Of a stretch of 64,000 nt of DNA, positions 3,409-45,402 are shown one piece after another. Where the stretch lies: the IMG/VR virus record IMGVR_UViG_3300028920_000066; one strand, 5' to 3'. The translations under genes were made by a program, and so were the position numbers. The notes below the pieces were generated by a model. The model had not been told where the DNA came from. It saw only the letters and a list, made by a program, of their open reading frames with translations, and did not search any database. The first letter of the stretch is position 1, and each line of letters begins with the position of its first letter. This DNA comes from an uncultured virus (IMG/VR IMGVR_UViG_3300028920_000066) (taxonomy: Duplodnaviria > Heunggongvirae > Uroviricota > Caudoviricetes).

Positions 3409-3786
3409 TCAATTCAAATTTCTTAGATTTTTTTCAAAATTCTTTTTTAACTCCTCAGCCATTTCTAAAATCTGGTCTTCAGAATAATCTGAGTTATTCC
3501 TCATTATCTCCAGAACATCGTCTAAAAGTTCTGGCAACATAGCTTTAAATTTTTTCTGTATCTTAACTTTTTCTGACAAACATTTGATATTACTATGAAC
3601 CTCTTTCTTTAATGCTTTCACATCACGCTTGTCTTCTATTACAACAGCTAAAGCCTGAAAGATAGTTAAGAACCTTTCTTCATCAGTCTTTCCGTCATCT
3701 GCCTTTATTAACTCCATTAGTGCTTCCTGTGTCTTTTCCTGAAACTTTCCCAGCTTTTCGATATATTTATCTTCTAATTCACTCAT
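3409..3786 (-). CDS. hypothetical protein
   Basis: 125 aa helical ORF. Confidence 0.7.
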   Translation of the reverse strand: MSELEDKYIEKLGKFQEKTQEALMELIKADDGKTDEERFLTIFQALAVVIEDKRDVKALKKEVHSNIKCLSEKVKIQKKFKAMLPELLDDVLEIMRNNSDYSEDQILEMAEELKKNFEKNLRNLN

Positions 3787-3977
3787 CGTCTACTCCTTTT
3801 TTTTGCTGTTCTCTTCTTTCCTATTGTTGAACTACCTGAACGACTTACACTCATTGAAAAATCATTAGGGGATTTAAACATATCCTTTTTACAGCTCTTA
3901 CAATATTTACTGGCTTTTGACTTAGCTTCATATGTTTTTCCACAAATATCGCACTCCAGCTCTACTATTTTGCCCAT
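3783..3977 (-). CDS. small zinc-ribbon protein
   Basis: CDIC...CKSC. Confidence 0.65.
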   Translation of the reverse strand: MGKIVELECDICGKTYEAKSKASKYCKSCKKDMFKSPNDFSMSVSRSGSSTIGKKRTAKKRSRR

Positions 3978-6054: not shown

Positions 6055-6516
6055 TTAGTTTTTATTTGTTATACCCCTGTATGTATAACTCGTTTCAAAT
6101 CTACTCATATCATAATCTATCTTCTTGCCTGACGTTTGTTCATCAAACGCCTCCCAGAAACTGCCTCGTCTACCACCCTCAGTATATTCGTGGTCAAAAC
6201 GTTTATGTATCGCCAAACGAACTATTTTTGAATCAATTATAAGATTAGATAAAATCTTATGTGTTTTTAATGTCTTCTCTGAACTGGGTTTTTTGATTCC
6301 CCAATATTTTGCCTTGTATTCATCCTTATTCATTTGACAAAACTCCTTTTGTATCCTCATTATAATTATATCAAGGTTCAGGAAATTTGTCAAGAGTTTT
6401 TTTAAGTGGGTGGGCACAGGGGGTAAATCACAAGTAATAGACGAGTAAGGCTCATCCGTTCCATATACGGATACCCTATTCAATTTTGGCTTGGTATTTA
6501 CAAGATAGATATTCAT
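6055..6516 (-). CDS. hypothetical protein
   Basis: 153 aa ORF. Confidence 0.65.
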   Translation of the reverse strand: MNIYLVNTKPKLNRVSVYGTDEPYSSITCDLPPVPTHLKKLLTNFLNLDIIIMRIQKEFCQMNKDEYKAKYWGIKKPSSEKTLKTHKILSNLIIDSKIVRLAIHKRFDHEYTEGGRRGSFWEAFDEQTSGKKIDYDMSRFETSYTYRGITNKN

Positions 6517-6527
6517 CGCCCACCCAC

Positions 6528-6725
6528 CTATTCTAAAAAAGCTGTCAGCTTTAAGCGTTCAACTTTTATTATTTCACCGAGCTGAGCTATTTCATAATTT
6601 TTTCTTTTATTAAATATTTTATTTTCAGCTTGTTTTTTGGTAGATGCTTTGACTAAAAAAAGATGGTCGTCACTAAACTCTTCGTGTAAGGTTTCGACCT
6701 CAATAAGAAAATAATTGGACTTCAT
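6528..6725 (-). CDS. hypothetical protein
   Basis: 65 aa ORF, ATGA overlap with groES. Confidence 0.65.
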   Translation of the reverse strand: MKSNYFLIEVETLHEEFSDDHLFLVKASTKKQAENKIFNKRKNYEIAQLGEIIKVERLKLTAFLE

Positions 6726-7027
6726 TTCGATTCTATGGCAATTATATCTGCCACTTCTATCATAAGATATTGCGTTTTTGCTTTATCATCATCCCGAACT
6801 TCTGACCCCGTATACTTAGCAACTAATACTATGTCACCTTTCTTAAAGTCTACAGGTTCAACTCTCGAACCCCAGTCAATGATTTCAGCTTTAGGTAATT
6901 CATTACTCATTTCTTTTACAGTTGACGGAACTATAATGTCCCCAACTTTATTCATTTCTTCTTTCTTTTCCTGATTCTGGTCTAAAGGTTTGACCATAAT
7001 CTTACTTCCAACAGGTTTAATTTTCAT
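6722..7027 (-). CDS. groES: co-chaperonin GroES (Cpn10)
   Basis: MKIKPVGSKIMVK..GDIIVP..KKGDIVLVAKYTGSEV..YLMIEVADIIA; GAGGAG RBS. Confidence 0.9.
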   Translation of the reverse strand: MKIKPVGSKIMVKPLDQNQEKKEEMNKVGDIIVPSTVKEMSNELPKAEIIDWGSRVEPVDFKKGDIVLVAKYTGSEVRDDDKAKTQYLMIEVADIIAIESK

Positions 7028-7052
7028 TCAATTCTCCTCTCATCTTTTTTTT

Positions 7053-7271
7053 AAATAAACAGCAAGAGAAATATGAAATAGGAATTTCCTTATTCACGAT
7101 TAAGGATTCGGCTGGGCTTCACCCTGCTTTGTGTCTATTTTAAGGTAAGACATAACCACGTCATTTCTGGTTCTCCTTTCGGAAAAACAAGTTTTGACAT
7201 TCGTCTGATAGTTGACGCTGAGTGTTAGTCAGCTTCGAAGTAACCCATTCCTCACTACTTACCATTTATTT
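7053..7271 (-). ncRNA. Y-RNA-like unit 6 (about 219 nt), multi-hairpin non-tRNA cargo
   Basis: terminal stem AAAUAAAUGGUAAG/CUUGCUGUUUAUUU (G-U pairs only on the minus strand), UAGUGA, GGAAUGGG/CCUAUUUC helix, UUACUUCG. Confidence 0.8.
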
Positions 7272-7275
7272 ATTT

Positions 7276-7459
7276 TTTAATGAGAGAAACACGTGATGGG
7301 GATTGCCCTCTAACGGTGGCGAACCGATAAGGTAACGCTCCTTATTCTTCCTCATTAAGGTCGGAATAACCCTGCTCCCATTTCCCTTTCAGCCTTTGGC
7401 TTACTCGGTGAGAGCTTCTCCAATTGTCGAAGTAGCCCATACACTCACTACTCATTAAA
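7276..7459 (-). ncRNA. Y-RNA-like unit 5 (about 184 nt), non-tRNA cargo
   Basis: terminal stem UUUAAUGAG/CUCAUUAAA, UAGUGA, GUG-U-AUGGG/CCCAUCAC helix, CUACUUCG. Confidence 0.8.
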
Positions 7460-7470
7460 TCTCTGTTTTT

Positions 7471-7607
7471 AAAAATTGGGAGAAAGCCGATAAGGGAACA
7501 CACCTTTCGGTGTTTGGTGGGAATTGAACCCACGACCTAAACTTTATAAGAGTTTTGCTCTACCAATTGAGCTACGAAGTAACCCTGTATCTCACTACCC
7601 AATTTTT
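7471..7607 (-). ncRNA. Y-RNA-like unit 4 (about 137 nt) carrying D, anticodon (UAU) and T arms in normal tRNA order
   Basis: scaffold plus UAGCUCAAUUGGUAGAGCA, AAACU-CUUAUAA-AGUUU, AGGUC, GUGGG-UUCAAUU-CCCAC; no acceptor stem. Confidence 0.85.
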
Positions 7608-7610
7608 TCT

Positions 7611-7622
7611 ATTAAAGAACAA
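7611..7622 (-). promoter_or_regulatory. second boxA-like antitermination element inside the RNA array
   Basis: TTGTTCTTTAAT between units 3 and 4; resembles rrn boxA TGCTCTTTAACA. Confidence 0.55.
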
Positions 7623-7631
7623 TTTATTTTT

Positions 7632-7769
7632 AATGTGGAGAAAACCGAGAAGAGAACGTTAGTGCCTTTTCCAATTAGGCTATTCCCCCTCTTGGTGGGG
7701 GAAGTAGGATTCGAACCTACAATCTCTGCATCCAATTTGCGAAGTAACTCTATCTCTCACTACCACATT
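7632..7769 (-). ncRNA. YrlA-like Y RNA (unit 3, about 138 nt) with a circularly permuted tRNA module
   Basis: scaffold, then T arm GUAGG-UUCGAAU-CCUAC, closed acceptor stem UUCCCCC-ACCAAGA-GGGGGAA, D arm GCCU-AAUUGGAAA-AGGC; adjacent to Ro60. Confidence 0.88.
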
Positions 7770-7780
7770 TATTTATTTTT

Positions 7781-7909
7781 AAAGTGGAGGAAACCGATAA
7801 GGGAATTGTTTGTATCCCCCGTAGGGGACATTTTTAGGGTTTGAACCTAATAAAAAACTTTTTGTAAGTTTTTATTAACCGAAGTATCCCTATATCTCAC
7901 TACCACTTT
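7781..7909 (-). ncRNA. Y-RNA-like unit 2 (about 129 nt), degenerate tRNA-like cargo
   Basis: scaffold, AU hairpin, T-arm-like UUAGG-UUCAAAC-CCUAA, and UGUCCCC-UACG-GGGGAUA hairpin. Confidence 0.8.
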
Positions 7910-7913
7910 TATC

Positions 7914-7993
7914 TTATGGGAGAAAACTTACGAGAGTTCTTTTTAAAATTTTTCACGAATTTTCGAAGTATCTCTTCGTATCACTACCCATAA
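7914..7993 (-). ncRNA. Y-RNA-like unit 1 (about 80 nt), minimal scaffold
   Basis: UUAUGGG/CCCAUAA stem, UAGUGA, UACGA-A-GAG/CUCUCGUA helix, AUACUUCG, short AU-rich insert. Confidence 0.8.
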
Positions 7994-8001
7994 TCTTTAT
8001 C

Positions 8002-8051
8002 TTTTAAAGAACATTATTTCAGATTTAGGATGAGTTTCCCCACCCTAAACC
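8002..8051 (-). promoter_or_regulatory. boxB-like GAAA hairpin followed by boxA-like element, leader of the RNA array
   Basis: GGTTTAGGGTGGG-GAAA-CTCATCCTAAATC (8051-8022) with no U tract, then TGTTCTTTAAAA (8013-8002). Confidence 0.6.
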
Positions 8052-8055
8052 AATA

Positions 8056-9567
8056 TTACAATTCTACTTTCTTAATCTTGTTGACAAGTGCTTTCTTATC
8101 CTGTTCTAACAACTTCATCATATCAAACACTTTGTCGCTAAATCCAGCAAGACAGTAAACCTGATTCTCTGGAAACTCAAGCGTTCCATATCCTGCTAAG
8201 TCAAAAGAATACAAGTGAGTTCCTACGCCATACTTATCTTGGTAGGTTTTGAAAGCTTTTGGAGCGGTTACTCCTGAGCTTCCCCATCCCCAACTTGTTT
8301 CTTTCCAACCCTGCATATCCGACATCAAAATTATTCTGTCATATTTCTTTTTAGCTCTTGTGAACGGATATCCAAAGTCTGTTCCACCACCGTGATTATT
8401 CTTAGCAATATGTTCTGTGATTGTCATCACGGAATCTTTTGGATTCACATTAACATATCTTGCGTCATCAGAAAACATTAAAAAATCACAGTTATTAGTT
8501 TTCACAAGCACAGCCGCAAACAACGCCCCAATTTCAATAGGTGTCTGTTTATCTCTATCACCATATCCAAATCCACCCATAGAACCAGAATCGTCTAATG
8601 CAACTAACATACTTCCGTCAAACTTAGGAACATTATTAAGAGAAATTTCTACAGCGTCATCGATAGCAACCATTATATCTCTTGCTCTGTCCAGTCTACT
8701 ATTCTTAAACTCTTTATAAGCAGTATAAAATCTGAAAGGCAATACAAGAGATTTCTTGATTAGCTTCTCGTCCCTTAACATATCAAGAGCCTTATCAAGC
8801 ATATCAGGTGACTGCTCTGCAATATTTCTTAAATTTCTTAAAAGAGCAAAGTATCCAATCTTTCTTGTGCCTACAAGTTCTTTCCAAGCGTCAGCCTTAA
8901 ACTTTTCTTTCTCTTCCTCAGTCTTAGCTGTTTGACCAGCCTTTGTCAACTTAGTTTCCCAAGTTCCATCTGAAGAAAGTTTATTGTCTACAACAAGCTT
9001 TTTTAAAGCCTCAGCGTTCTTTTCTGTAGGTCTTGGTCTTACAAGATTGATAGCGTCAAGTAAAGATACTTCTTTTGTGCCACCCTTATATTTAGCAATT
9101 TGATATGCGTCAAACTTATCAAAAGCTTTAGCAAGACCTTTCTTTAAAGCATTAGGAAGAACAGCTCTCTTCTTATCTTTACTGTATTTATCAAAATAGT
9201 TTGCAAGGATTTCTGTGATATCATCTGTTCTGTAAACTACTTTATTAAAGAAAGATTTACCCCAAGAAACACCCTGTCCTTTGATTTCATTAGCAATTAT
9301 TGAAGCAAGAGCGTGAGTAATAGACCTCATACCAAACTCAGTTCTTGCATAGATACCAGCCTTAGCACCAAATGATAAGTCAGGAAGCTTCTTTACAACA
9401 GCTTCTAACTGTTTCAAAGCTGTTCCAGAATCCCTGTAATACTGGTCTTTCACAAAGCTGGTTAGTAATAAAGACACTAATTCCAACTCTGGACTTTCCT
9501 TGTAAGATTTTCCACCTGCAAGGTTAGTAGTTTTTGTTCCTGCTTTCTTTTTGTTGAATTTGCTCAT
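8056..9567 (-). CDS. Ro60/Rsr RNA-binding protein (TROVE + vWA domains)
   Basis: TTNLAGGKSY, YARTEFGMRS, FDAYQIAKY, TWETKLT, IGYFALLRNLRNI, LVLPFRFYTAY, MIDAS DDSGSM, GGGTDF, SDMQGW; start at MSKFNKK after AGGAGAGG. Confidence 0.95.
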   Translation of the reverse strand: MSKFNKKKAGTKTTNLAGGKSYKESPELELVSLLLTSFVKDQYYRDSGTALKQLEAVVKKLPDLSFGAKAGIYARTEFGMRSITHALASIIANEIKGQGVSWGKSFFNKVVYRTDDITEILANYFDKYSKDKKRAVLPNALKKGLAKAFDKFDAYQIAKYKGGTKEVSLLDAINLVRPRPTEKNAEALKKLVVDNKLSSDGTWETKLTKAGQTAKTEEEKEKFKADAWKELVGTRKIGYFALLRNLRNIAEQSPDMLDKALDMLRDEKLIKKSLVLPFRFYTAYKEFKNSRLDRARDIMVAIDDAVEISLNNVPKFDGSMLVALDDSGSMGGFGYGDRDKQTPIEIGALFAAVLVKTNNCDFLMFSDDARYVNVNPKDSVMTITEHIAKNNHGGGTDFGYPFTRAKKKYDRIILMSDMQGWKETSWGWGSSGVTAPKAFKTYQDKYGVGTHLYSFDLAGYGTLEFPENQVYCLAGFSDKVFDMMKLLEQDKKALVNKIKKVEL

Positions 9568-9633
9568 AACTTCACCTCTCCTGTTTAAGTGCCCGTCCCT
9601 GTAGTTGGACACCGAATATCTATCTTGTATATA

Positions 9634-9662
9634 ATCTTATCAAATTTATAAGTTCTTGTCAA
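9634..9662 (-). promoter_or_regulatory. sigma70-type promoter of the Ro60/Y-RNA/groES unit
   Basis: TTGACA (9662-9657), 17 bp, TAAGAT (9639-9634) with extended -10 TG. Confidence 0.8.
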
Positions 9663-9696
9663 GTTTTTTTTTCATTTTTTTTAATTTTTTTTGCCT

Positions 9697-10722
9697 TTAT
9701 TTATTAGTGTTTTTTAGAACCCCTAAAAGCTTTTCTCTTTTTTTCTTTAAAAAGAACAACCTACCACGTCTTCTATTTCTCTCTTTTCTTATTTGTTTAT
9801 CTTTATTCTTCTTCCAATTATCTTTTGAATTTTTTCTTTGCTTCTCTTTATGTTCTTCTATTTCTTTTTTTGAAAGCTTTCTTTTCTTACGTTCTTGTTT
9901 GTGTTCCTTGTGCCATTCACTTAAAACACTAACAGCGTGGTGCAATTTGAGGTGTTCCTGATTAACAGCATAATGCAATCGATTATAACATTTATTCTTT
10001 ATCTTATTAACAAACTCCCTAATTTCTTTACTTTGCGACTTTATTTTTTTAACCTGTTCCTTATCCATCAAAAACTTATACAAAGCTATAACGTCTTTTA
10101 TATCTGCCGAGTCTACTAAGAACAACATATTCTTTTTATTACTAAAATTATCTTTTGCTTTCTGTAAACTCCAAGCTTTAATATCTGAAGATTTTTCAAC
10201 AACTTCATTAACGCTACGGTTCTGCGTATTCTCCTTTAGATATTTTTTCATTTCCTCAAGCACAGACAACTTATTATCCTTATTAAGAATAAAATAAAAC
10301 GTCTTCATAAAATATTTATAGTTACAAACAACAGGGTCTTTCTTACAATCTATATCTTCTTTATCCCCAAACAACTTCTCCATATCTTTAGTTGTCACCT
10401 GATATTTTCCCGTAATTGCATCATAACCTTTATTAAAAGCCTCAATGTTAATTCTATCGTTCTTATCTTTCTTTATCTCATTATTAACAAATGTATACAA
10501 TCTTTTCAATACGTCAACTTTATCTTCCAGATACTTATTTATATCTTCCCTCAATTCCTTTCTATATTCAACCCTCTCTTTTTTCTTTGCCATACGCTCT
10601 TCATATTCTTCAGGGTTTAATATACTTTTCTTCCTATTAGAAATCTTCTTTAATTCCCCCTCTTCCTTTTCAATTTCTTGTTCGCACCTTTTTAATTCTC
10701 GCTGTGCCTCTTCATAGTTCAT
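9697..10722 (-). CDS. hypothetical charged coiled-coil protein
   Basis: 341 aa Lys/Glu-rich ORF. Confidence 0.7.
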   Translation of the reverse strand: MNYEEAQRELKRCEQEIEKEEGELKKISNRKKSILNPEEYEERMAKKKERVEYRKELREDINKYLEDKVDVLKRLYTFVNNEIKKDKNDRINIEAFNKGYDAITGKYQVTTKDMEKLFGDKEDIDCKKDPVVCNYKYFMKTFYFILNKDNKLSVLEEMKKYLKENTQNRSVNEVVEKSSDIKAWSLQKAKDNFSNKKNMLFLVDSADIKDVIALYKFLMDKEQVKKIKSQSKEIREFVNKIKNKCYNRLHYAVNQEHLKLHHAVSVLSEWHKEHKQERKKRKLSKKEIEEHKEKQRKNSKDNWKKNKDKQIRKERNRRRGRLFFLKKKREKLLGVLKNTNK

Positions 10723-12223: not shown

Positions 12224-15200
12224 TTACCACTTCCAAATAAATTTTTTCACATCAATATCTTTTATCCTATCGTTTAAAGAATTGCTTGTATCCTCTTTAG
12301 GCTTATCTTTTAATATCCTATTCTCGTCACCAATATACTGACGCTTCAAGGGTTTATCTTCTTTTATACTACCATCTCCAGTTTCTTCTACAGAAAGGTC
12401 TGCTATATCCTTTACAAGAGTATCGTCTTTAAGAAGCTCCTTTATTTTTTCTTTAGTTGTTTTACTTTCTAACTGACTTAATTTGTCTTTTTTCTTTTTC
12501 TTTTTATTCTTTTTAGGCTTTAAGTATTGCATTACATTATCTATATTCCACCTAAAATAATGTTCTTGTGCAGTATTATCTTCTTCACTACCATCATAAA
12601 CTTCTGTGCTCATCATATTAGCTTTTATATCAAACCTTTCGTCCTTTGGATTTATATAATAAAAATCATTTAATATAAATTCAGTATCTGGTTCTACACC
12701 CATTCCTGCTTCTGGCAAAACAACACTCCCAGGCTTACCGTCCAATTCTTTACAAGCTTCTTTTGTCACATAGGCTAACGTAATATGTGGTTTATAATCT
12801 TTATATGTTGTAATATGTTCAAATTTATCCGAAACATTTTTATGTAGTTTATGTAAATCCTCTGATTCTACTTCTATGATAATCACATCATATGGTTTCT
12901 GGTCATCAGAAAATCTTGATAAATTACCAAATTTTATATTAACAGGATTTACCAAACCTAATATCTCATCTGCATTATGTTCTTTTAAACCATATAAAAC
13001 TGTAGCGTGTATTTCGTTTTCACGACCAAAACCTTTTTCTTCAACATATAAATCTTCATCTTTAATAGTCTGTTTAGCAAAATTTCTTATACGTTCAGCT
13101 ATTTCTATAGGTAGCTCTACCATTAAACACCCATATTTTTCTTCTGCACATATTGAATGTTTTATATTAGCTTCCACTACGTCTTTATTAAATGTAGTTA
13201 CTGCTATCTTATGTATAGCGTCCCTAAAAGCTCTTTCGTCTTCTTCCCAAGCGTCATCATTTTCATCGTCTATATATAAATTATTCTTTTCCCAAGTATC
13301 CGAACATAATTCTATATGAACCTGTTCTCTTTCGTCCTCAAATTTTTGCCAATCTTTTGTAGACCATCCACCCAAAACTATATCGGCATACTTCTTTAAT
13401 AAGTCCATATCTATTTTAAGCTCTCCATTATCAAACATCTTAACATATTCATCAACCTTATACCCCGTCACGTCTTTAACCTGCGTAGATTCTTTTATCA
13501 TTGTTTCTGAGTGCTCTGGATACTTATTCTTTTTAAATCCCATACCCTTATACCATTTCTGTAATTTTTTCTTATTACCACCAAAATCTCCTGACGGAGT
13601 AAGCGTTACAACAAGACCGTGCTCTTTGGCATAATCAAGAACTAAATCCATTACTTGTGTGCCTATACCTTGTTGCCTTTCTTCTTTAGGAACAAGTATT
13701 TTATTAACCGTTATAGCTTTCGTGCTTGGGTGATAAGTAGTCCACAAAGTCACATTAGGATATTTCTCTTCTACTAACTTATCCAACTCCTCTATATTAA
13801 CCTCCGAAGAGTTTACACCTTTTTTATTAAGAGTTTTTATACTCAAGTCTATCCTAAAATCATTATCTTTAAATTCATCCCACGTATTATAAATAAGTTT
13901 ATCTCCATAATCCATAACAATAAAATCTTTTGGTGCATATTCTGTTATCAATTCTTCAGCTTTTGTAAGGTCTACCCCAGCCTTACATTCAATGTTAGCT
14001 GTTTCTTCATAAAACCAAAACCTTATCCAACCGTCACGTATCATATTATTAAATGTTTCTGAAGTTGTCGAACCTATTTGTGTATACTTTTTAACAATAT
14101 CTAAATTTTCGTCTATCCACCAGCTATGCGTTTCAGGAACTCCCTCATTCCTAATATTAAAATCTGTGCCATCAGGGGCTATCCAATAAGCACTTCCTAC
14201 CGCGGCATAAACATATCTTAAATTACTTGCTGGTTGTTCAAACATATCCTTTACTCCCCACACCTTAACGTCTTTACCCTCATAAGTTTTCTCTTCTATT
14301 TTATTTACTGCTGTTAGTTTTCCAAGCGTCACAGGTTTATCATCTTCTAACTCGTTTTCTAAAAATTTATCTAAAGCGTCAAAATCTGTTTTTGAACTAA
14401 ACATCACATTAGTTCCATAACTCCATTTTCTTATACGAGCCCAACCACCTACAACCATTCTATCTAATATATCAAATGGACTTGCTTCATACATATCATA
14501 CTTTTCATATACTTCTATGTCCTTATTAGAAAGATATGGTTCAACGTATTCCATATTTTCAGCTTCCAAAACCCATTCTGCGTGAACGTCCCCCACTTCT
14601 ATTACTTCTCCTTTAGGTGTTATAAACCACCCAGCTATCATCTCTGCCTTTATTTTGCTACCAAATATTTTATCCCAAGTAGTATTATAACTTTTATTTA
14701 AAGTTAAGTCTTGCAAATTATAACTATCCATTATAATACTATCACCACTTTTTCCAATGTCCCCCATTAAAGGTTTTATTTTTTCTATAGCGTCCTTTCT
14801 ATTCCCATAATAATTGACACCCCAATAATTCATATCGCTTAATCTTACAGCTATCCAACCGTCTTTTAACATTTCTGCTATAACATCAGCAAGAGCATAA
14901 TACATTTTATTATCATATAGTTTTATCTTTTTATTATTAACCATATCCATCTGTTCATCTGTAAAATATTGTGACAACTCTTCAGCGTTGTCATATATCC
15001 AAGCTCTATGGTCATCCTTGCCCCATTTACCCAATTTAATATATGAGCTATCAGGCTTTACCCAATAGCCCTGACCTGGCATATCAGAAGCTTTTACATT
15101 ACTTTGTATCTCTTCCAGCCACGTTGTCTTATCTTCTAAATTTTTCTTACCCTCGTCAATGACCTTATATAAAAAGTAATAATCGTGATTATCTATATCA

Positions 15201-17080
15201 AATATTTCATAGTTGCCATAATTCTCGGTTATCTTTATCTTTGTGCCTACTGGAAGTTCTTTATATAATATAACATCTTCTATATCATATGGGTCATCTG
15301 GGTCTGGCTCTGGGTTCTCCCCCCAATAATGAACCATTAACGGTTTAGTTACTTCTACCATCGTGCTACTTGCTTTTACATATTCTTCTTCTATCATTCC
15401 TGTTATCGCAAGTCTTACTGCGTGATTAACATCAGGAATTTCTCCAAAGTCACTATAATCAGCCATATCTAATTGGCTTAAAAGACCGTGCTCTTCTAAA
15501 AGGGTCATAAGCCATTCAATATTACCTGCCGTTGCTTTACTTGTGCCTACTCCTAACAGTTCTGATAAATATTCGTGCTGAGTTTCTCTTTCATAATCAT
15601 CACTTAATCCCTTTTCAACTTTCTCTATTATCTTTTTATATTTATAAAACTCTTTCCAAAACTTTTTCCAATTAACTTTTGGAAATTCTTGGTTCTTTAT
15701 TAAGCTTTCTATAAAAGAAAAAGCGTCTTGTCGTGATGATTTAACTTTCTTGTGGTCTTCTACTATCTTATTTATCTTTTTTAATATTGCTTTACCCCAT
15801 TTACCATTATAAGGAACATTAACTGCTCGGTCATCAAGAAATACTAATGCTGTAGAAGATTTCTCATTTGTTATCTTATCATAAGGCACTTCATTCTTAT
15901 CCAGCAACTTCTTTATCTTATCCCTGTCCTCTTTACCTCTGGCTGTGAATATAACTATCTTCCAACCATCTTCTTTTAACTCCTTTAATATCTTCACATT
16001 TTCTTCTATTAAATCTTTTGAACCAGTATAAGGATAATTATCAACAGCAAGAGTTCCGTCAAAATCTATACAGATTTCTTTCTTTCCAGCATTGATTATA
16101 ATCTTTGATTTTATATCTTTAATAAACTGCAACGCATAACCGTGAACAGCGTCCCTTAAAGGTTCTGTCAATACAGCGTCATATATGTGTTGATAAGGGC
16201 TATCTTCACCTATAAGTTCATTATAAAGAGCCTCATTGTTTTCTATAATCCACATCACTAACTCTATATGTTTATCGCTTCTTAACTGGTCGAATTTTTC
16301 AAACTCATCATCAGAAGCCTTTTCTACATTTTTAACAGCATTTACATAATCTGTTAATAATTTTTCATCAACTTTAAGTTCACCACGATTAAGTCTATAT
16401 TCATAATCTTCTACCTTTTTCTTATGCTCTTCATAATTACCTATCACAGACAGACTGTGAACCTCATACATAAACTGGTCAAAGTCTTCGCCAAAGAACT
16501 CGGCTGGAATTTGGTCAGCCATTTCAAATATTTGCTGGTCAGTAAGATTAGGGTTATTTTTCTGAATATTGATTTTTAATTCGGTGTGTAATCTTTGACG
16601 TTCCTTTTCAAGCTCTTCTAAAAGTTCTACATTATATTTAGAGTTCATCATATTATTAAGGTGTGTAAGATATTTATTAAGAACTTCCTCATCTATCTTA
16701 ATATCGCTTATGGTTATTGCCTTACCATAAACATTACCAAATGCGTCTTCTACATATTCATAATCTTTAAGTGCATCTTCCACAACAAACTGTTTAGCAT
16801 AATGATGCACAGCGTCCCTAAAATCTAAATCATCTAAATCATATTGTTTGTTTAGTTCTGGATTTAATCTCAAAAAAGCTTCCGTAAGTTTGTCGTGTAG
16901 GTCAACTCTATGTAAATCTATTATGATAAGTTCTTTTGTGTTATATTCTTTTTTAGCATAATCGTTTTCTTCTTGCCAAACAGAAATATATTCTTCTAAT
17001 TCCTTTTCTGGGATTTTTATTTTATTACTGTTTAGTTTTCGTAAAATTTGTTTACTATTAGAAGTTATTTTATTTTTTAG
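12224..17080 (-). CDS. polyvalent protein: helical repeats, HAD phosphatase, three W-x-x-P-x-G repeats, GNAT, Acb1-like 2H phosphoesterase; probably the -1 frame continuation of the GGDEF gene
   Basis: frame is open from 17080, upstream of the tracked TTG at 16873; DFDGTL/FTARG/FLDDRAV, VPKEERQQGIGT, HATVLY...HITLAY. Confidence 0.85.
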   Translation of the reverse strand, partial: LKNKITSNSKQILRKLNSNKIKIPEKELEEYISVWQEENDYAKKEYNTKELIIIDLHRVDLHDKLTEAFLRLNPELNKQYDLDDLDFRDAVHHYAKQFVVEDALKDYEYVEDAFGNVYGKAITISDIKIDEEVLNKYLTHLNNMMNSKYNVELLEELEKERQRLHTELKINIQKNNPNLTDQQIFEMADQIPAEFFGEDFDQFMYEVHSLSVIGNYEEHKKKVEDYEYRLNRGELKVDEKLLTDYVNAVKNVEKASDDEFEKFDQLRSDKHIELVMWIIENNEALYNELIGEDSPYQHIYDAVLTEPLRDAVHGYALQFIKDIKSKIIINAGKKEICIDFDGTLAVDNYPYTGSKDLIEENVKILKELKEDGWKIVIFTARGKEDRDKIKKLLDKNEVPYDKITNEKSSTALVFLDDRAVNVPYNGKWGKAILKKINKIVEDHKKVKSSRQDAFSFIESLIKNQEFPKVNWKKFWKEFYKYKKIIEKVEKGLSDDYERETQHEYLSELLGVGTSKATAGNIEWLMTLLEEHGLLSQLDMADYSDFGEIPDVNHAVRLAITGMIEEEYVKASSTMVEVTKPLMVHYWGENPEPDPDDPYDIEDVILYKELPVGTKIKITENYGNYEIFDIDNHDYYFLYKVIDEGKKNLEDKTTWLEEIQSNVKASDMPGQGYWVKPDSSYIKLGKWGKDDHRAWIYDNAEELSQYFTDEQMDMVNNKKIKLYDNKMYYALADVIAEMLKDGWIAVRLSDMNYWGVNYYGNRKDAIEKIKPLMGDIGKSGDSIIMDSYNLQDLTLNKSYNTTWDKIFGSKIKAEMIAGWFITPKGEVIEVGDVHAEWVLEAENMEYVEPYLSNKDIEVYEKYDMYEASPFDILDRMVVGGWARIRKWSYGTNVMFSSKTDFDALDKFLENELEDDKPVTLGKLTAVNKIEEKTYEGKDVKVWGVKDMFEQPASNLRYVYAAVGSAYWIAPDGTDFNIRNEGVPETHSWWIDENLDIVKKYTQIGSTTSETFNNMIRDGWIRFWFYEETANIECKAGVDLTKAEELITEYAPKDFIVMDYGDKLIYNTWDEFKDNDFRIDLSIKTLNKKGVNSSEVNIEELDKLVEEKYPNVTLWTTYHPSTKAITVNKILVPKEERQQGIGTQVMDLVLDYAKEHGLVVTLTPSGDFGGNKKKLQKWYKGMGFKKNKYPEHSETMIKESTQVKDVTGYKVDEYVKMFDNGELKIDMDLLKKYADIVLGGWSTKDWQKFEDEREQVHIELCSDTWEKNNLYIDDENDDAWEEDERAFRDAIHKIAVTTFNKDVVEANIKHSICAEEKYGCLMVELPIEIAERIRNFAKQTIKDEDLYVEEKGFGRENEIHATVLYGLKEHNADEILGLVNPVNIKFGNLSRFSDDQKPYDVIIIEVESEDLHKLHKNVSDKFEHITTYKDYKPHITLAYVTKEACKELDGKPGSVVLPEAGMGVEPDTEFILNDFYYINPKDERFDIKANMMSTEVYDGSEEDNTAQEHYFRWNIDNVMQYLKPKKNKKKKKKDKLSQLESKTTKEKIKELLKDDTLVKDIADLSVEETGDGSIKEDKPLKRQYIGDENRILKDKPKEDTSNSLNDRIKDIDVKKFIWKW

Positions 17081-18240
17081 TTTTTTTTTCTACTCTCTAT
17101 TTCTTTTGGCGTTTCGTCATCACAAGTTTCACACTCTTCATTCTTCGTCAAATCCTTGCCGTCATCTGTGTGAGCCTCACAATCCATACCCTCTTCATAT
17201 TCCACTACCATATCACGCCCACCCTCTTTAGCACAATATAAAGCTTTGTCCGCTTCTTTAAATACTTCTTCTGTGCTTTCAGTTTCTTCATAGCCCGTGA
17301 ACCCAATTGATACAGAAATATTAAACCCATTTTCAAACTCAAGTGTTTTAACTTTTTCTCTTAATTCGTCAAGAAAAACTTCTGCTGTCACACTATCATC
17401 AGCAGGTAATAATAATATAAATTCTTCCCCTCCCCACCTGAAAGCAATTGTTTCTTTGTCCAGCATACCACCTAAAGCCTTAAGCACTTCATCCCCCACA
17501 TCGTGCCCATAAGTGTCATTAACGTCTTTAAAATGGTCTACGTCTATGATTGCAAAATACAAAGACTCATCGTCTAAATCTTCTACCACTAAGTCAAAAG
17601 CATTACGATTATATAATTGAGTAAGATTATCTCTCAAAGCAAGGTCTTTCCAATATTCAATATCTTTATCTTTATCTTCATTCTTTATGTTCTGCTCGTT
17701 CTCTTCGTCAGCTTTAATGTTCTCTAAAACTCTATACTTATCTTCACCTAAATATTGTATGTTGATATATGATTTATCTATTATATTAGTAGCGATAGTT
17801 TTGTCACCACCACCTCGCCAATCTTCTACCTGATATCCAAGCTCTGCTAACTCAAGTTCAGAATATACTTTGTTTGCACACACCAAGTTTCGTGCATTAG
17901 CTTCTTCGATTGTTTCCTCTATGATAGCTTTCTTCTCTGGGTCTTTTTCTGTTTTAAGCATATCCTCTAATTCACATACCGTATGCTCTATTAAAAACTC
18001 AAAATATTTATAAGACTCTTCTTCGGTCATATTAGATTTCACCTTTTTAATATGGTATCGTGGTTCTTCTGCTTCATCTTCTCGAATTGTTTTATCTCTA
18101 CTTCTCATACTCGGTTGAAACTCATCTAATAATCTTAAATAAACAGTATCTCCACCAGAACGAGTAAACCTTTCACGTATTCTATAGTCTATACCGTCAT
18201 AGTTAATATAATTTCCAGGGTCGGTATTTTTAGCTTTCAT
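17077..18240 (-). CDS. GGDEF diguanylate cyclase with N-terminal unknown domains
   Basis: DNLTQLYNR, IIDVDHFKDVNDTYGHDVGDEVL, RWGGEEF, ADKALYCAKEGGRD. Confidence 0.92.
   Translation of the reverse strand: MKAKNTDPGNYINYDGIDYRIRERFTRSGGDTVYLRLLDEFQPSMRSRDKTIREDEAEEPRYHIKKVKSNMTEEESYKYFEFLIEHTVCELEDMLKTEKDPEKKAIIEETIEEANARNLVCANKVYSELELAELGYQVEDWRGGGDKTIATNIIDKSYINIQYLGEDKYRVLENIKADEENEQNIKNEDKDKDIEYWKDLALRDNLTQLYNRNAFDLVVEDLDDESLYFAIIDVDHFKDVNDTYGHDVGDEVLKALGGMLDKETIAFRWGGEEFILLLPADDSVTAEVFLDELREKVKTLEFENGFNISVSIGFTGYEETESTEEVFKEADKALYCAKEGGRDMVVEYEEGMDCEAHTDDGKDLTKNEECETCDDETPKEIESRKKN
17080..17089 (-). other. A9 slippery site (AGA AAA AAA AAC TAA), putative -1 frameshift
   Basis: A AAA AAC heptamer in frame 0; the -1 frame has TAG immediately before the run and is then open for about 4.9 kb. 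Confidence 0.75.
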
Positions 18241-43044: not shown

Positions 43045-45402
43045 TTATGGTGATATCCTACGCATAATCATTATTCCTGTTACATACATTCTTTCACTTG
43101 TATTTTTAGGAAAAGGCACGGTGCTTCTAAAACTTACTACTCCAGAACCAATTAAATGTGGTGTTATAGCTACAGGATATGTTCCAAACCCGTAATTATT
43201 TTCTACTGTTCCCAATGATGTGTGAGTTGCTATTGAAACAATTTCATATTTAGACCCGTCCCAAGTTACACTTCCCTCACCTTTACCAGTAGTTCCTGGT
43301 AAATAACGCAAGTCCGCTTTAAAAGCCCATAACTCCCAGTTGTCTGTTCTTCCACTATTGTCGCCACCAACTCCAGCACCATCTCCGTGAATATTTAATC
43401 CACCACTAATAGGTATTTTATGAATTATTGTTTGTTCTAAACTTTGATTTCCAATTTCTGTTCTAAAATCATCATTTGCCTGTTCGTTAAATATGTCTTT
43501 AGAAGTTAATGTCGCTGGAACTTTTTGACTATAATTTATAGAATCTGTTCCATAATATGCTGATTTAGGAAAAATAGATACAAGCGTAGACGCTCCCCAA
43601 GAGCCTCTAAAATATAATCTTAAATTTCCTGTATTAAAATCCATATTAAGTTGTGTCGTTCCATTATTTTGTAATGGGGGGAAATAACTTTGACCACTAC
43701 CAGTTTCAATAACTTCAAGATAACCGTCTGTAGCAGGGTCATAATTTGTAACATATATTGCACAATTAAAAACCATTTTATCAGAAGATGGAGGGTTTGC
43801 AGTAAGATTAAAATTAAGAGTAACATATTCATTAGTTTGTATATTACTACATTGAAACCCATAATTTATTCCATAAACATTTGTTCCACCTACTCCATTT
43901 AATCCTACAAAATGATTATAAATATTATCAACAGTATCTGTTTCAATCCATTGACTTGGTCCTGTAAAATATGCCATAGGAATTAAATTCTTATTATTTG
44001 CAACTCTACTTGTTTCACTTGGTCTTATTTTTTCATAAGACGTATTTGTTGTGCCCAAACCTATAATAGGTTGTATCTGGTCAGGGTTTGAACCAGCATA
44101 TCCCTCGTGAACTCTAAGCTCACAATTACCACCACTATTTAACCACCATACATATCCTAAAGTAACACCTTTATCTAAAACGTTATCAAATCTAATATCA
44201 CTTGCTAAAGTTGAAACAAACACAGATTTTAATGTTACATAATCTGTATCGTCTAATCCATCGTGGTCAAAATAAATTCTATACCACCCCTCATCAGGAT
44301 TAGCTCCACCTCCATTACCATCGCCACTAAAATTTAATCTTACAGCACTTATACCCGAATCAAAAGGTTCTGCATTACTTAAACTAAATACACGTCCGTC
44401 AGAATGAACTTCATAATTTGCATTTCTATCTAAACGAATATAATGTTCATCAGCAGGTAAATCACCTGAATTAAATTTATTTGTAATTTGTCTTGCAGTT
44501 TCTAAAACTTGTTGCTGAGAATTAGTTCCTACACCCGTTTTATATACTATACCATTAGAAATAATACGGCTATTCTCTGTAAAACTATCTCTCTCCATTC
44601 CACCAGTATGTAAAGAATTTACCCCGTGTGGGTTTTCTGGTCTTATAAGTTTATCGCCTAAAGCGTTAATATGGTCTTTTAAAGTAGTTTCTGTTCCGTC
44701 CGTATATTCAGACGGTGAAGCCGAACTATCTACTTCTATATTTACGCTTTCTTGTTTTATACCAGCATAATTTCTTTCAGGGGCAGTTGCTGGATTATTC
44801 ACATCGTCATAAAAAGTAAGAACTGTTCCAACTTTATTTATTCTTCCTAAATATAGAACATCAGCAGGGGGTTGGGCAGAGTTATTAAATCTAATAATAA
44901 TTCTATATCCCTCGTGGGTTTTTGGATAAAACACCACTCCGTCCTTATTAACAGCAGTAAAAACAGAATCTTTAAGATTTTCATATCCTATCCATATATA
45001 ATAATCTCCATCACCAGAAGATAATGGTATTTGAATATTTCCTTGATTTTGAAATTCAGTAGGAGTAGTTTTATATGTTTCATTTGAAGCAATATAATAT
45101 AATCTTCCTCCAGCGTCTACAAAATACATAGCAGTCACACCAACTGAAGAAACAGGTATATCAAAATATAATCCTTGATTTGGTGTAGCTATATAATTTG
45201 TCTGGTCAAAAGCTACTAATTGGGGTTGTTTTAAAAACCCATATTCAAAATCGCCTAATGTGTTTTTAGGTATTTGTCTTATAATACCTTTTTCTAAATA
45301 TGCACCGACATAATTTCTAACATTATTAAACATCCACTCTTGCATATTATTCATATCTTGAACTGACACTCTACGTTTATTAAAAAACTCGTATGACCTC
45401 AT
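43045..45402 (-). CDS. putative tail fibre / baseplate-attached protein
   Basis: 785 aa beta-rich; N-terminal FFNKRRVSVQDMNNMQ, internal HINA..NPHGV. Confidence 0.6.
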   Translation of the reverse strand: MRSYEFFNKRRVSVQDMNNMQEWMFNNVRNYVGAYLEKGIIRQIPKNTLGDFEYGFLKQPQLVAFDQTNYIATPNQGLYFDIPVSSVGVTAMYFVDAGGRLYYIASNETYKTTPTEFQNQGNIQIPLSSGDGDYYIWIGYENLKDSVFTAVNKDGVVFYPKTHEGYRIIIRFNNSAQPPADVLYLGRINKVGTVLTFYDDVNNPATAPERNYAGIKQESVNIEVDSSASPSEYTDGTETTLKDHINALGDKLIRPENPHGVNSLHTGGMERDSFTENSRIISNGIVYKTGVGTNSQQQVLETARQITNKFNSGDLPADEHYIRLDRNANYEVHSDGRVFSLSNAEPFDSGISAVRLNFSGDGNGGGANPDEGWYRIYFDHDGLDDTDYVTLKSVFVSTLASDIRFDNVLDKGVTLGYVWWLNSGGNCELRVHEGYAGSNPDQIQPIIGLGTTNTSYEKIRPSETSRVANNKNLIPMAYFTGPSQWIETDTVDNIYNHFVGLNGVGGTNVYGINYGFQCSNIQTNEYVTLNFNLTANPPSSDKMVFNCAIYVTNYDPATDGYLEVIETGSGQSYFPPLQNNGTTQLNMDFNTGNLRLYFRGSWGASTLVSIFPKSAYYGTDSINYSQKVPATLTSKDIFNEQANDDFRTEIGNQSLEQTIIHKIPISGGLNIHGDGAGVGGDNSGRTDNWELWAFKADLRYLPGTTGKGEGSVTWDGSKYEIVSIATHTSLGTVENNYGFGTYPVAITPHLIGSGVVSFRSTVPFPKNTSERMYVTGIMIMRRISP

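What the first reader, a model, noticed from the sequence alone, without database searches (positions are those of the whole stretch)
7053..9662. Phage Ro60 with an array of six modular Y-like RNAs: one conserved scaffold, six different cargos
Seen: the roughly 1 kb gap between Ro60 and groES is filled by six co-oriented units (7914-7993, 7781-7909, 7632-7769, 7471-7607, 7276-7459, 7053-7271; 80-219 nt). Each reads terminal stem - G-UAGUGA - helix, bulged in five of six - N-UACUUCG - variable cargo - helix partner - pyrimidine tract ending CU - terminal stem. Paired positions covary (GAUA-U-AGGG/CCCUUAUC, GAGA-U-AGAG/CUCUUCUC, GUG-U-AUGGG/CCCAUCAC, UACGA-A-GAG/CUCUCGUA) while UAGUGA and UACUUCG are invariant. 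G-U pairs fix the minus strand as the RNA. Established: Ro60/Rsr binds the terminal stem of Y RNAs, the other end acts as an effector module (PNPase tether in Deinococcus, tRNA mimic in YrlA), and characterised loci have one or two Y RNAs. Inference: the phage uses Ro60 as a common chassis for an interchangeable set of RNA effectors or decoys, e.g. against host anticodon nucleases, RNA toxins or RNA decay. I do not know of a described six-member, cargo-swapped array.
Basis: partly seen in the sequence, partly recalled or inferred. Interest (0 to 1): 0.95.

Follow-up and report, generated by a model that had tools for sequence, protein, structure and literature searches.

The report
Phage Ro60 with six Y-like RNAs
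A phage carries the RNA-binding protein Ro60 followed by six small RNA genes that share one conserved stem but hold different inner domains, and the same layout turns out to be common beside Ro60 in other phages and in bacteria.

Summary
Six co-oriented units fill the gap between a TROVE/vWA Ro60 gene and groES. All six have the pattern UAGUGA-N(5-14)-UACUUCG, against 0.02 matches expected by chance. Their two helices covary, and the domains enclosed by the helices ("cargo") are unrelated.

The same scaffold lies on the Ro60 strand beside Ro60 homologues:
- 62 of 74 phage-side sources, 99 covariance-model hits, none on the opposite strand.
- 45 of 79 bacterial loci, 59 hits.

Pairing is 90.7% against 61.6% in shuffles, 0 of 500 shuffles as high.

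The units are best read as a divergent YrlA-like class of Ro60-bound Y RNAs. Units 2-4 carry tRNA-like domains, unit 1 is minimal, and units 5-6 are orphans. Rfam 15 does not hold the scaffold.

Six is not unique. By reading I count eight units in Caulobacter phage CcrColossus (three are in the 2014 catalogue), five in Xanthomonas phage Tabio, six in the closest uncultured relative, and six in a verrucomicrobial genome (my detector counts seven).

Ro60 binding, expression and the decoy or adaptor function are untested. Verdict: a real feature and a new variant of a known kind, moderately interesting.

The parts
9634..9662 (-). sigma-70-like promoter candidate upstream of Ro60 (TTGACA, 17 nt, TAAGAT, TG before the second hexamer)
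   Evidence: Weak evidence: 10 promoter-like sites were found in 6500-10000, against 9.6 expected in shuffles.
8056..9567 (-). Ro60 / Rsr homologue (TROVE ring plus vWA domain), 503 aa, ATG at 9567
   Evidence: Pfam TROVE 60.9 bits (cut-off 23) and vWA_Ro60 37.4 bits (cut-off 27.7). PHROG 850 'RNA-binding protein', E 3.4e-45. Thermus phage phiLo Ro60 structures 9KOP/9L5Y, E 7.2e-21. D325, S327 and S329 are invariant in 13 homologues; that they form the vWA metal-binding (MIDAS) motif D-x-S-x-S is my reading.
8024..8049 (-). hairpin directly after the Ro60 stop codon, with no T run after it
   Evidence: Read from the sequence. Not called as a terminator. Function unknown.
7914..7993 (-). unit 1, 80 nt: scaffold with a minimal 26-nt cargo
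   Evidence: Covariance model R1: 49 bits, E 1.4e-11. Fold z-score -1.82.
7781..7909 (-). unit 2, 129 nt: cargo is a long A/U hairpin, a T-arm-like hairpin and a G/C hairpin; no D arm
   Evidence: Fold z-score -3.43. A unit of the same architecture is in L136 at 3740-3868.
7632..7769 (-). unit 3, 138 nt: YrlA-type cargo (T arm, acceptor-like hairpin, D arm)
   Evidence: Rfam YrlA RF02553: 31.4 bits, E 1.5e-4, below the gathering score of 69. Fold (z-score -1.94).
7471..7607 (-). unit 4, 137 nt: cargo is D arm, anticodon arm (UAU) and T arm in tRNA order plus one extra hairpin; the scaffold stands where the acceptor stem would be
   Evidence: Rfam tRNA: 55.3 bits, model positions 4-67 only. ARAGORN calls tRNA-Ile(tat) at 7509-7581. 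By my reading only 3 of 7 acceptor pairs can form. Fold z-score -3.17.
7276..7459 (-). unit 5, 184 nt: 126-nt multi-hairpin cargo of unknown kind
   Evidence: fold z-score -1.87. No Rfam match. No blastn match in 332 loci.
7053..7271 (-). unit 6, 219 nt: 153-nt multi-hairpin cargo of unknown kind; helix 2 has no bulge and two G-U pairs
   Evidence: fold z-score -3.90; 0 of 200 shuffles fold as well. No Rfam match on the minus strand. No blastn match.
6722..7027 (-). groES-like co-chaperonin, next gene downstream; its ribosome-binding site begins about 20 nt after unit 6
   Evidence: Pfam Cpn10 40.6 bits. PHROG 3188. No minus-strand terminator-like site between Ro60 and this gene.

Best explanation
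The six units are genes for Ro60-partner non-coding RNAs. They are a divergent, YrlA-related class of bacterial and phage Y RNA, arranged as an array behind the phage's own Ro60 gene.

Each RNA has two modules.

Module 1 is constant. The 5' and 3' ends pair into a terminal stem. This continues into a short irregular helix (UAGUGA opposite UUUUCU, with a 3-nt bulge on the 3' strand). A second helix of 8-9 bp follows, and the module ends in a junction that always reads UACUUC.

Module 2 is whatever the second helix encloses: almost nothing in unit 1, tRNA-like folds in units 2-4, and two larger unknown folds in units 5-6.

Shown here: the anatomy, the strand, the covariation of both helices, the invariance of the two motifs, and the linkage to Ro60 in phages and bacteria.

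Inferred from what is established for Y RNAs (Deinococcus Yrn1, Salmonella and Mycobacterium YrlA/YrlB, phage phiLo Yrl1/2):
- The array is transcribed with Ro60 and cut into single RNAs.
- Ro60 binds the constant module. UAGUGA sits where YrlA RNAs carry their GNCGAA motif.
- Each variable module brings a different partner to the Ro60 ring, or occupies that partner. Candidates are a nuclease such as PNPase or a tRNA-handling enzyme.

On this reading the phage redirects host RNA decay, RNA quality control or tRNA-directed defences during infection.
For: - Six of six units carry both motifs, against 0.02 expected. Cognate arms pair best.
- Covariance model R1 was built from seven short units of other loci. 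It finds 99 hits at E<=1e-3 in 62 of 74 phage-side sources, all on the Ro60 strand. It finds 59 hits in 45 of 79 bacterial Ro60 loci, all on the Ro60 strand.
- On the 99-row alignment, 90.7% of cells pair against 61.6% in shuffles. There are 628 double-change cells against 208. The covariation score is 0.726 against 0.209. 0 of 500 shuffles reach these values, and partners slid by 1-3 columns give 46-56%.
- The MAFFT-only seed alignment gives 87.8% against 64.9%, 0 of 500.
- Inside the 'internal loop' an A-U pair changes to G-C: 80 A-U, 18 G-C.
- UAC is present in 99 of 99 hits and UUC in 97-99 of 99.
- A motif-plus-structure detector gives 87 hits on the Ro60 strand against 1 on the other strand.
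- The flanking protein genes are not conserved: 0 of 160 loci for seven of eight neighbours, recA in 9 of 80 phage loci. The RNA array is the only constant companion of Ro60.
- Unit 3 matches YrlA and unit 4 a tRNA core.
- Literature: Y RNAs are modular and encoded near Ro60 on the same strand, and M. smegmatis YrlA and YrlB come from one precursor (Chen 2014, PMC4201824, passages and section 5). phiLo Ro60 binds two phage Yrl RNAs and host PNPase (PMC12135203, abstract and passages).
Against: - There is no expression or binding evidence for this window.
- No unit reaches Rfam's YrlA cut-off (31.4 against 69 bits; only unit 3 is hit).
- The literal YrlA motif GNCGAA is absent: 0 of 6 units, 0 of 99 hits.
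- Two contigs with model-supported units (L066, L027) show no TROVE gene in the 52-60 kb held. Both are fragments, 15-17% complete.
- The Ro60 loci of phiLo and Vibrio phage Va1 gave no model match, and that of HGTV-1 only a weak one (14.3 bits, E 0.44), so the scaffold is not universal.
- The cargos of units 1, 2, 5 and 6 have no detectable relatives, so their structures rest on single-sequence folds with modest z-scores (-1.8 to -3.9).
- The 99-row alignment was fitted to the model, which favours pairing. The model's seeds all carry UACUUC, which favours finding it.
- The promoter call is no better than chance.
Confidence: 0.8

Rival explanations
1. The units are precursors of tRNAs or tRNA-like RNAs. 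The constant module is a leader-trailer duplex that is removed by RNase P, RNase Z or other nucleases, the released cargo is the working molecule, and Ro60 at most chaperones the precursor.
For: - Unit 4 scores 55.3 bits on the tRNA model.
- In 5 of 297 distinct units ARAGORN calls a tRNA that starts at the UACUUC junction: window Ile-UAU, csAssE-Sib Tyr-GUA and Lys-UUU, cr111_1 Gln-UUG, L256 Ile-GAU.
- Three of these are annotated as tRNA genes in GenBank.
- M. smegmatis YrlA is cut by RNase P and receives CCA in vivo (Chen 2014, passage).
Against: - In unit 4 the tRNA model covers positions 4-67 only, and by my reading 3 of 7 acceptor pairs can form. The window's two tRNAs called at Rfam's cut-off match the model end to end at 64 bits.
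- No CCA is encoded.
- Only 7 of 297 units give any ARAGORN call.
- Units 1, 5 and 6 and the many 64-90-nt units have no tRNA-like part, yet they keep the scaffold.
- A leader-trailer that is thrown away would not need an invariant UACUUC.
Confidence: 0.07
2. The scaffold is the binding site of another protein, host or phage (for example an exoribonuclease or an RNA chaperone). It sits beside Ro60 only because both belong to one RNA-metabolism module. UACUUC, not UAGUGA, would be the key contact.
For: - UACUUC is the most conserved element and lies far from the position of the known Ro60 contact.
- Two contigs hold units without a detectable TROVE gene.
- phiLo Yrl RNAs also bind PNPase on their own (PMC12135203, discussion passage).
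Against: - Units lie within a few hundred bases of Ro60, on its strand, in 62 of 74 and 45 of 79 loci that were picked by the Ro60 protein alone.
- No other neighbouring gene is conserved.
- Of eight pattern-found loci with model-supported units, six have Ro60 nearby: within the 2.5-kb flank in five, just beyond it in L019.
- This rival is not exclusive: a second protein at UACUUC is compatible with Ro60 at the stem.
Confidence: 0.08
3. The units are not working RNAs. They would be a repeat family such as miniature inverted-repeat elements, or cis-acting hairpins that stabilise or punctuate the Ro60-groES transcript.
For: Each unit is bounded by a short inverted repeat. The units are packed with 4-24-nt spacers inside what looks like one operon.
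Against: - The inverted repeats differ between copies while keeping complementarity: 4-12 of 15 arm positions are shared. Copies of a mobile element share their ends.
- The interiors are unrelated.
- Two short motifs are invariant across loci whose Ro60 proteins are only 25-57% identical to the window's.
- Strand bias is complete.
- There are no copies elsewhere in the window.
Confidence: 0.03

Closest known systems
YrlA RNAs (Rfam RF02553; Salmonella, Mycobacterium and 22 phages in Chen et al. 2014, PMC4201824)
   Same: - Encoded beside Ro60 on its strand.
- The 5' and 3' ends pair.
- A conserved 5'-strand motif follows directly after the terminal stem.
- A tRNA-like effector module is present: unit 3 has T arm, acceptor-like hairpin and D arm in YrlA order.
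- Some loci hold several copies.
   Different: - The motif is UAGUGA, not GNCGAA(N)G. Relatives with UGGCGA bridge the two.
- There is a second, invariant UACUUC junction motif and a conserved pyrimidine 3' strand.
- Rfam's model does not reach its cut-off.
- Half of the window's units, and most short units elsewhere, have no tRNA-like domain.
Caulobacter phage CcrColossus Ro60 locus (three YrlA listed in Table S2 of Chen et al. 2014)
   Same: A phage Ro60 with an upstream tandem array. The units show the same order of stem, 5' motif, helix, UACUUCG or UUCUUCG, cargo, helix, pyrimidine tract, stem. R1 hits two of them.
   Different: By my reading there are eight units, of which only three are catalogued. 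The 5' motif is GGCGUAG, GC content is high, and the array lies upstream rather than downstream of Ro60.
Deinococcus radiodurans Yrn1 and the Ro60-Y RNA-PNPase machine (RYPER)
   Same: Two-module logic: a Ro60-binding stem plus an effector module that tethers a partner. This is the working model borrowed here.
   Different: No sequence or model similarity was detected. The partner of the window's RNAs is unknown, and no PNPase gene is seen in the window.
Thermus phage phiLo Ro60 with Yrl1 and Yrl2 (PMC12135203; PDB 9KOP, 9L5Y)
   Same: A phage-encoded Ro60, homologous to the window's (E 7.2e-21), with phage-encoded Y-like RNAs next to it. Binding to Ro60 and to host PNPase was shown in vitro.
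   Different: There are two RNAs, and they carry a CGAA motif in a large bulge. Neither R1 nor the motif scan finds the UAGUGA/UACUUC scaffold in that locus.
Metazoan Y RNAs
   Same: A small RNA whose paired ends hold the Ro60 site in a bulged helix, with a variable loop region. Most vertebrates have two to four kinds (Chen 2014, introduction).
   Different: No Rfam Y_RNA match at E<=10. The genes there are dispersed polymerase III genes, not an operon array.

Membership tests
Y RNA in the functional sense (RNA partner of Ro60) | Encoded close to a Ro60 gene on the same strand (the rule used for bacteria and phages in Chen et al. 2014) | tested here: met
   All six units lie 62-1003 nt downstream of the Ro60 stop codon, on its strand.
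Y RNA in the functional sense (RNA partner of Ro60) | 5' and 3' ends pair into a long stem that holds a conserved site | tested here: met
   Both helices covary. UAGUGA is present in 6 of 6 units.
Y RNA in the functional sense (RNA partner of Ro60) | Bound by Ro60 in cells or in vitro | not testable with these tools
   No RNA run holds the stretch. No RNA-protein modelling tool was on hand.
YrlA (Rfam RF02553) | Score at or above the curated gathering score (69 bits) | tested here: not met
   Only unit 3 is hit, at 31.4 bits, E 1.5e-4. There is no hit at the gathering threshold.
YrlA (Rfam RF02553) | GNCGAA(N0-1)G motif near the 5' end | tested here: not met
   0 of 6 window units and 0 of 99 model hits carry it. 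The same position reads UAGUGA, UGGCGA and similar.
YrlA (Rfam RF02553) | tRNA-like domain with T arm, acceptor-like hairpin and D arm | tested here: inconclusive
   Present in unit 3. Unit 2 has the T arm and hairpin only. Unit 4 has D, anticodon and T arms in tRNA order. Absent from units 1, 5 and 6.
tRNA (for unit 4) | Complete cloverleaf with a 7-bp acceptor stem | tested here: not met
   The Rfam tRNA model matches positions 4-67 of 71 only. By my reading of the sequence, 3 of 7 acceptor pairs can form.
Ro60 / TROVE protein (for the gene at 8056-9567) | TROVE ring domain followed by the Ro60-type vWA domain, each above Pfam's cut-off | tested here: met
   TROVE 60.9 bits against a cut-off of 23, and vWA_Ro60 37.4 against 27.7. 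Homology to solved phiLo Ro60.

The most novel reading that the evidence does not exclude
Ro60 of this clade, in phages and bacteria alike, works as a common ring-shaped chassis. It is loaded from a genomic array with up to eight different adaptor RNAs. The invariant UACUUC junction is a second docking site shared by all of them. Each cargo aims the complex at, or soaks up, a different client. The grafted near-complete tRNAs (Ile-UAU here; Lys-UUU, Tyr-GUA and Gln-UUG in crAss-like phages) would be decoys or sensors for tRNA-cleaving defence nucleases. The array would then be a multi-target counter-defence or RNA-surveillance hub.
Probability: 0.2. Interest if true: 0.85.

Novelty: new variant of a known kind. 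Interest (0 to 1): 0.6.

Why it matters
Y RNAs are thought to work as two-part adaptors, but very few effector partners are known. In bacteria only the tRNA-like YrlA type has been catalogued widely.

This locus and its relatives show a strictly conserved Ro60-side module joined to many different inner domains. These are arranged in arrays of up to eight. In two verrucomicrobial genomes the order of cargos is conserved.

This has three consequences:
- It gives a ready-made natural series of 'same handle, different head' RNAs for finding what Y RNA heads bind.
- Several genes annotated as phage tRNAs are probably Ro60-linked mimics.
- The published count of Y RNAs per locus is probably too low.

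Cultured, harmless systems carry the same scaffold (CcrColossus on Caulobacter, Brevundimonas phages), so the questions can be tested directly.

Tried and rejected
1. MAFFT on 15 short units misaligned the 3' halves. I used a 7-sequence subset instead.
2. Model R1 cannot span long cargos. With filters off, only unit 1 of the window is found properly, and units 2 and 3 give misaligned hits of 14 bits. Long units were therefore located with my own scripts.
3. An unconstrained duplex search of 5' arms against downstream sequence did not discriminate between strands.
4. A permissive structural detector was too noisy: 1550 against 1741 hits, and after a motif filter 191 against 85. It was replaced by stricter versions (87 against 1; 130 against 7 and 203 against 13).
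Only 5 of 80 loci had Ro60 in the flank.
6. No RNA holder is listed for the stretch. The one run listed is a DNA run that may be the source sample.
7. The metagenome scan gave no Ro60 closer than 56% identity, so the cargos of units 5 and 6 could not be tested by comparison. blastn of the cargos found only generic T-arm and D-arm matches for units 3 and 4, and nothing for units 1, 2, 5 and 6.
8. Synteny of neighbouring proteins: none.
9. No whole genome is held for the window. The 2020 Annual Review on bacterial Ro60 (PMC10870794) is not held, so a statement there on array size would have escaped me.
10. The repeated 17-mer before units 1 and 4 was considered as a phage promoter. It occurs only at those two places, so this stays open.
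11. A protein-coding reading of the gap was rejected. The short ORFs listed there cut across units of unequal length, and the conservation pattern is one of base pairs.
12. Structure prediction and complex prediction were not used.


Full report
**What is there.** I read the minus strand of 6800-9800. It runs in this order:
- a promoter-like site;
- a 503-codon gene with a TROVE domain (60.9 bits) and a Ro60-type vWA domain (37.4 bits);
- a hairpin;
- six packed units separated by 4-24 nt;
- a groES-like gene (Cpn10, 40.6 bits).

The pattern UAGUGA-N(5-14)-UACUUCG occurs six times in the 64-kb window, all in this gap and all on the minus strand. The mean in shuffles is 0.02, and 0 of 100 shuffles reach six.

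The window is phage DNA. 68 of 73 long ORFs lie on one strand, and it encodes a DNA polymerase, a DnaB-like helicase, SbcCD, a RecA/UvsX-type recombinase, baseplate proteins and a tail sheath. No whole genome is held for it.

**Anatomy.** Each unit reads as follows:
- 7-nt terminal stem strand;
- UAGUGA;
- helix strand (9 nt in units 1-5, 8 nt in unit 6);
- one nucleotide;
- UACUUCG;
- cargo of 26, 75, 84, 77, 126 and 153 nt;
- helix partner;
- an 8-nt tract ending UUUCU or UUCCU;
- terminal stem partner.

The stems differ between units: 4-12 of 15 arm positions are shared. They stay complementary within each unit. Cognate arms give -16.3 kcal/mol on average against -10.1 for non-cognate arms, and each cognate pair is the best in its row and column. 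This excludes simple recent duplication as the reason for the shared motifs.

**Strand.**
- The tRNA and YrlA model matches are on the minus strand.
- Unit 6 needs G-U pairs.
- Units 5 and 6 fold much better on the minus strand (-54.6 against -45.2 and -58.9 against -44.6 kcal/mol). Unit 1 does not.

**Comparison with other loci.** tblastn with the Ro60 protein finds homologues in 101 phage records. The best is a 634-kb uncultured phage at 55% identity. At least 545 stretches of IMG/VR encode a relative.

I built covariance model R1 from seven 66-74-nt units found beside Ro60 in other contigs, with 20 base pairs. I gave it 74 of the 87 phage-side sources on hand. The 13 loci left out gave the same detector output as another locus or lie on a contig already fetched. 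I took them to be duplicates and did not verify this one by one.

R1 gave 99 hits at E<=1e-3 in 62 of the 74 sources, every one on the Ro60 strand.

| Measure on the 99-row alignment | Observed | Shuffled |
|---|---|---|
| Cells forming a standard pair | 90.7% | 61.6% |
| Cells changed on both sides | 628 | 208 |
| Covariation score | 0.726 | 0.209 |

- 0 of 500 shuffles reach these three values.
- 19 of 20 pairs change on both sides; 3 of 500 shuffles do as well.
- Sliding the partners by 1-3 columns gives 46-56% pairing.

That alignment is fitted to the model. The MAFFT-only seed alignment gives the same picture: 87.8% against 64.9%, 0 of 500.

The apparent internal loop is partly a helix. 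Its A-U pair turns into G-C in 18 of 99 rows: UAGUGA with UUUCU against UGGUGA with UUUCC.

UAC is present in 99 of 99 hits and UUC in 97-99 of 99. The seeds all carry these letters, so the hits are biased towards them.

In short units the apical part reads U-UAC-UUC, 5-12 nt, GAA, A-rich, CA. UUC may therefore pair with GAA.

**Array size elsewhere.** R1 cannot bridge long cargos, so I used scripts.

| Detector | Ro60 strand | Opposite strand | Units per locus |
|---|---|---|---|
| Strict (both motifs, stem at least 6 of 7, helix, pyrimidine tract) | 87 | 1 | 0-4 in the 80 phage loci; 6 in the window |
| Broader, phage loci | 130 | 7 | 0-5 |
| Broader, bacterial loci | 203 | 13 | up to 7 |

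These loci include near-duplicates, so they are not independent.

Counts by reading the sequence:
- The closest relative, L136 (Ro60 57% identical), has six units with different cargos directly upstream of Ro60.
- Caulobacter phage CcrColossus has eight. Three are listed in Table S2 of Chen et al. 2014, and one overlaps a GenBank 'tRNA-Gln'.
- Xanthomonas phage Tabio, a 43-kb phage, has five.
- Brevundimonas phage Marchewka shows four 5' motifs upstream of Ro60, and the detector places four units there.
- The crAss-like phage csAssE-Sib has three, two of them annotated as tRNA-Tyr and tRNA-Lys.

**Bacteria.** At least 592 stretches of bacterial genomes encode a relative of this Ro60. The 80 best that were kept are 41-53% identical; they come from Saprospiraceae, Verrucomicrobiota, Hymenobacter and Prosthecobacter among others.
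- R1 hits 45 of the 79 loci I gave it, with 59 hits, all on the Ro60 strand. I left out one 1.8-kb contig.
- A 5.2-Mb Nibricoccus contig shows six clear units upstream of rsr by reading; the detector counts seven.
- A second verrucomicrobial locus has the same kinds of cargo in the same order.

The scaffold is therefore the Y RNA handle of a whole Ro60 clade. It is not a phage invention, and an array of six is ordinary within that clade.

**Limits of the linkage.**
- The Ro60 loci of phiLo and Vibrio phage Va1 gave no model match, and that of HGTV-1 only a weak one (14.3 bits, E 0.44). Streptomyces phage Quantum has one weak hit.
- Among 80 loci found by DNA pattern alone, R1 supports units in eight. 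Six of these have Ro60 nearby, within the 2.5-kb flank in five and just beyond it in L019. Two contig fragments show no TROVE gene.

**Relation to known families.**
- At gathering thresholds, Rfam 15 reports only tRNA in the window.
- At relaxed thresholds, unit 3 matches YrlA at 31.4 bits against a cut-off of 69. Unit 4 matches tRNA at 55.3 bits over model positions 4-67.
- The motif that defines YrlA, GNCGAA(N0-1)G (Chen 2014, section 6 passage), is absent: 0 of 6 units and 0 of 99 hits. The same position holds UAGUGA, UAGCGA, UGGCGA and, in CcrColossus, GGCGUAG. My inference is that this is a graded series towards the YrlA motif.
- I therefore do not file the units as YrlA members. I call them a YrlA-related class with the same working logic.

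Cargo kinds:
- Units 2-4 have a T-arm-like hairpin; units 1, 5 and 6 do not.
- Among distinct units, 29 of 98 from phage loci and 110 of 200 from bacterial loci have such a hairpin.
- In 5 of 297 distinct units a near-complete cloverleaf in tRNA order starts at the junction: the window's Ile-UAU, Tyr-GUA, Lys-UUU, Gln-UUG and Ile-GAU.

**How it most likely works.**

Shown:
- structure, strand and motif conservation;
- exclusive companionship with Ro60, with no other neighbouring gene conserved.

Inferred:
- Co-transcription from the Ro60 promoter. There is no minus-strand terminator-like site before groES, but the promoter call itself is at chance level.
- Processing into single RNAs, as for M. 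smegmatis YrlA and YrlB (Chen 2014).
- Ro60 binding at the stem and UAGUGA.
- Cargo-specific recruitment or sequestration of partners.

Published support for a phage role:
- phiLo Ro60 binds two phage Yrl RNAs and forms complexes with host PNPase (PMC12135203, abstract and passages).
- A Ro60-like protein of phage Bas63 counters the ppl defence system, and its authors suspect Y RNAs among the adjacent tRNA genes (preprint 10.1101/2024.10.10.617714, one passage).
- A Listeria phage has three abundant non-coding transcripts upstream of an Rsr-like gene (PMC12282133, discussion passage).
- Jumbo-phage TROVE proteins are grouped with RNA repair systems (PMC7824862, one passage).

**Novelty.** Five full-text searches found no description of this scaffold, of the UACUUC motif, or of arrays larger than three. 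In the parts of the 2014 supplementary tables that I read (Table S2 whole, Table S1 part 5), the largest entry is three per locus. I could not see the 2020 Annual Review or parts 1-4 of Table S1 beyond three matched rows.

The finding is a real variant of a known kind, and by these searches uncatalogued. Its main value is the general pattern it reveals, not the single locus.

**Not resolved.**
- Expression: no RNA holder is listed.
- The role of UACUUC.
- The folds and partners of units 5 and 6, which have no relatives in 332 loci.

Noticed in passing
window 12224-16873 (-): A 1549-aa multidomain protein. It has an Acb1-like / 2H phosphoesterase domain (residues 1285-1372, 33.4 bits) and sub-threshold GNAT hits (residues 1045-1115). 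PHROG hits to phosphoheptose isomerase and polynucleotide kinase families cover residues 263-371. It may be a counter-defence or RNA-end-processing giant protein, 2.7 kb from Ro60.
   Followed up: partly
window 17077-18240 (-): A phage gene with a full GGDEF diguanylate-cyclase-type domain (110 bits).
   Followed up: no
window 7996-8012 and 7604-7620 (-): The 17-mer GTTCTTTAAWAGAWAAA occurs exactly twice, just upstream of unit 1 and of unit 4. It may be an internal promoter or a processing signal that splits the array into two groups of three. Unexplained.
   Followed up: partly
window 44073-44152 (-): ARAGORN calls a tRNA-Leu(tag) here. Rfam's tRNA model does not reach its cut-off, and the site lies inside a 785-codon ORF. 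It is probably a false call.
   Followed up: no
L132 1638-2835 (CcrColossus, JX100810.1 about 108499-109696): There are eight scaffold units upstream of TROVE gp139. Five are absent from the 2014 YrlA table. One overlaps the GenBank 'tRNA-Gln', and two annotated 'terminators' lie inside units.
   Followed up: partly
L134 2496-2915 (csAssE-Sib) and L220 1389-1520 (cr111_1): The genes annotated as tRNA-Tyr, tRNA-Lys and tRNA-Gln in crAss-like phages sit inside Ro60-type scaffolds directly upstream of Ro60. The Tyr-like one has G instead of U at position 33 of the anticodon loop. They are likely Y-like tRNA mimics, not decoding tRNAs.
   Followed up: partly
L289 2010-2900 and L293 2310-2910: Two verrucomicrobial rsr loci carry arrays with the same succession of cargo kinds, including a non-tRNA-like cargo of about 130 nt with long shared stretches. 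This suggests that each cargo is an orthologous, separately selected RNA.
   Followed up: no
L066 2989-3094 and 4465-4547; L027 1759-1892: Model-supported scaffold units (R1 E 2e-6 to 1e-4) lie on viral contig fragments that show no TROVE gene in the 52-60 kb held. Either Ro60 lies elsewhere in those genomes or the RNA can exist without it.
   Followed up: partly
window 7130-7172 (-), inside unit 6: An AGGAG box followed 7 nt later by a 9-codon ATG-to-TAG mini-ORF lies within the cargo of unit 6. The box is sequestered in a GAAA-capped hairpin in the predicted fold. Probably chance.
   Followed up: no
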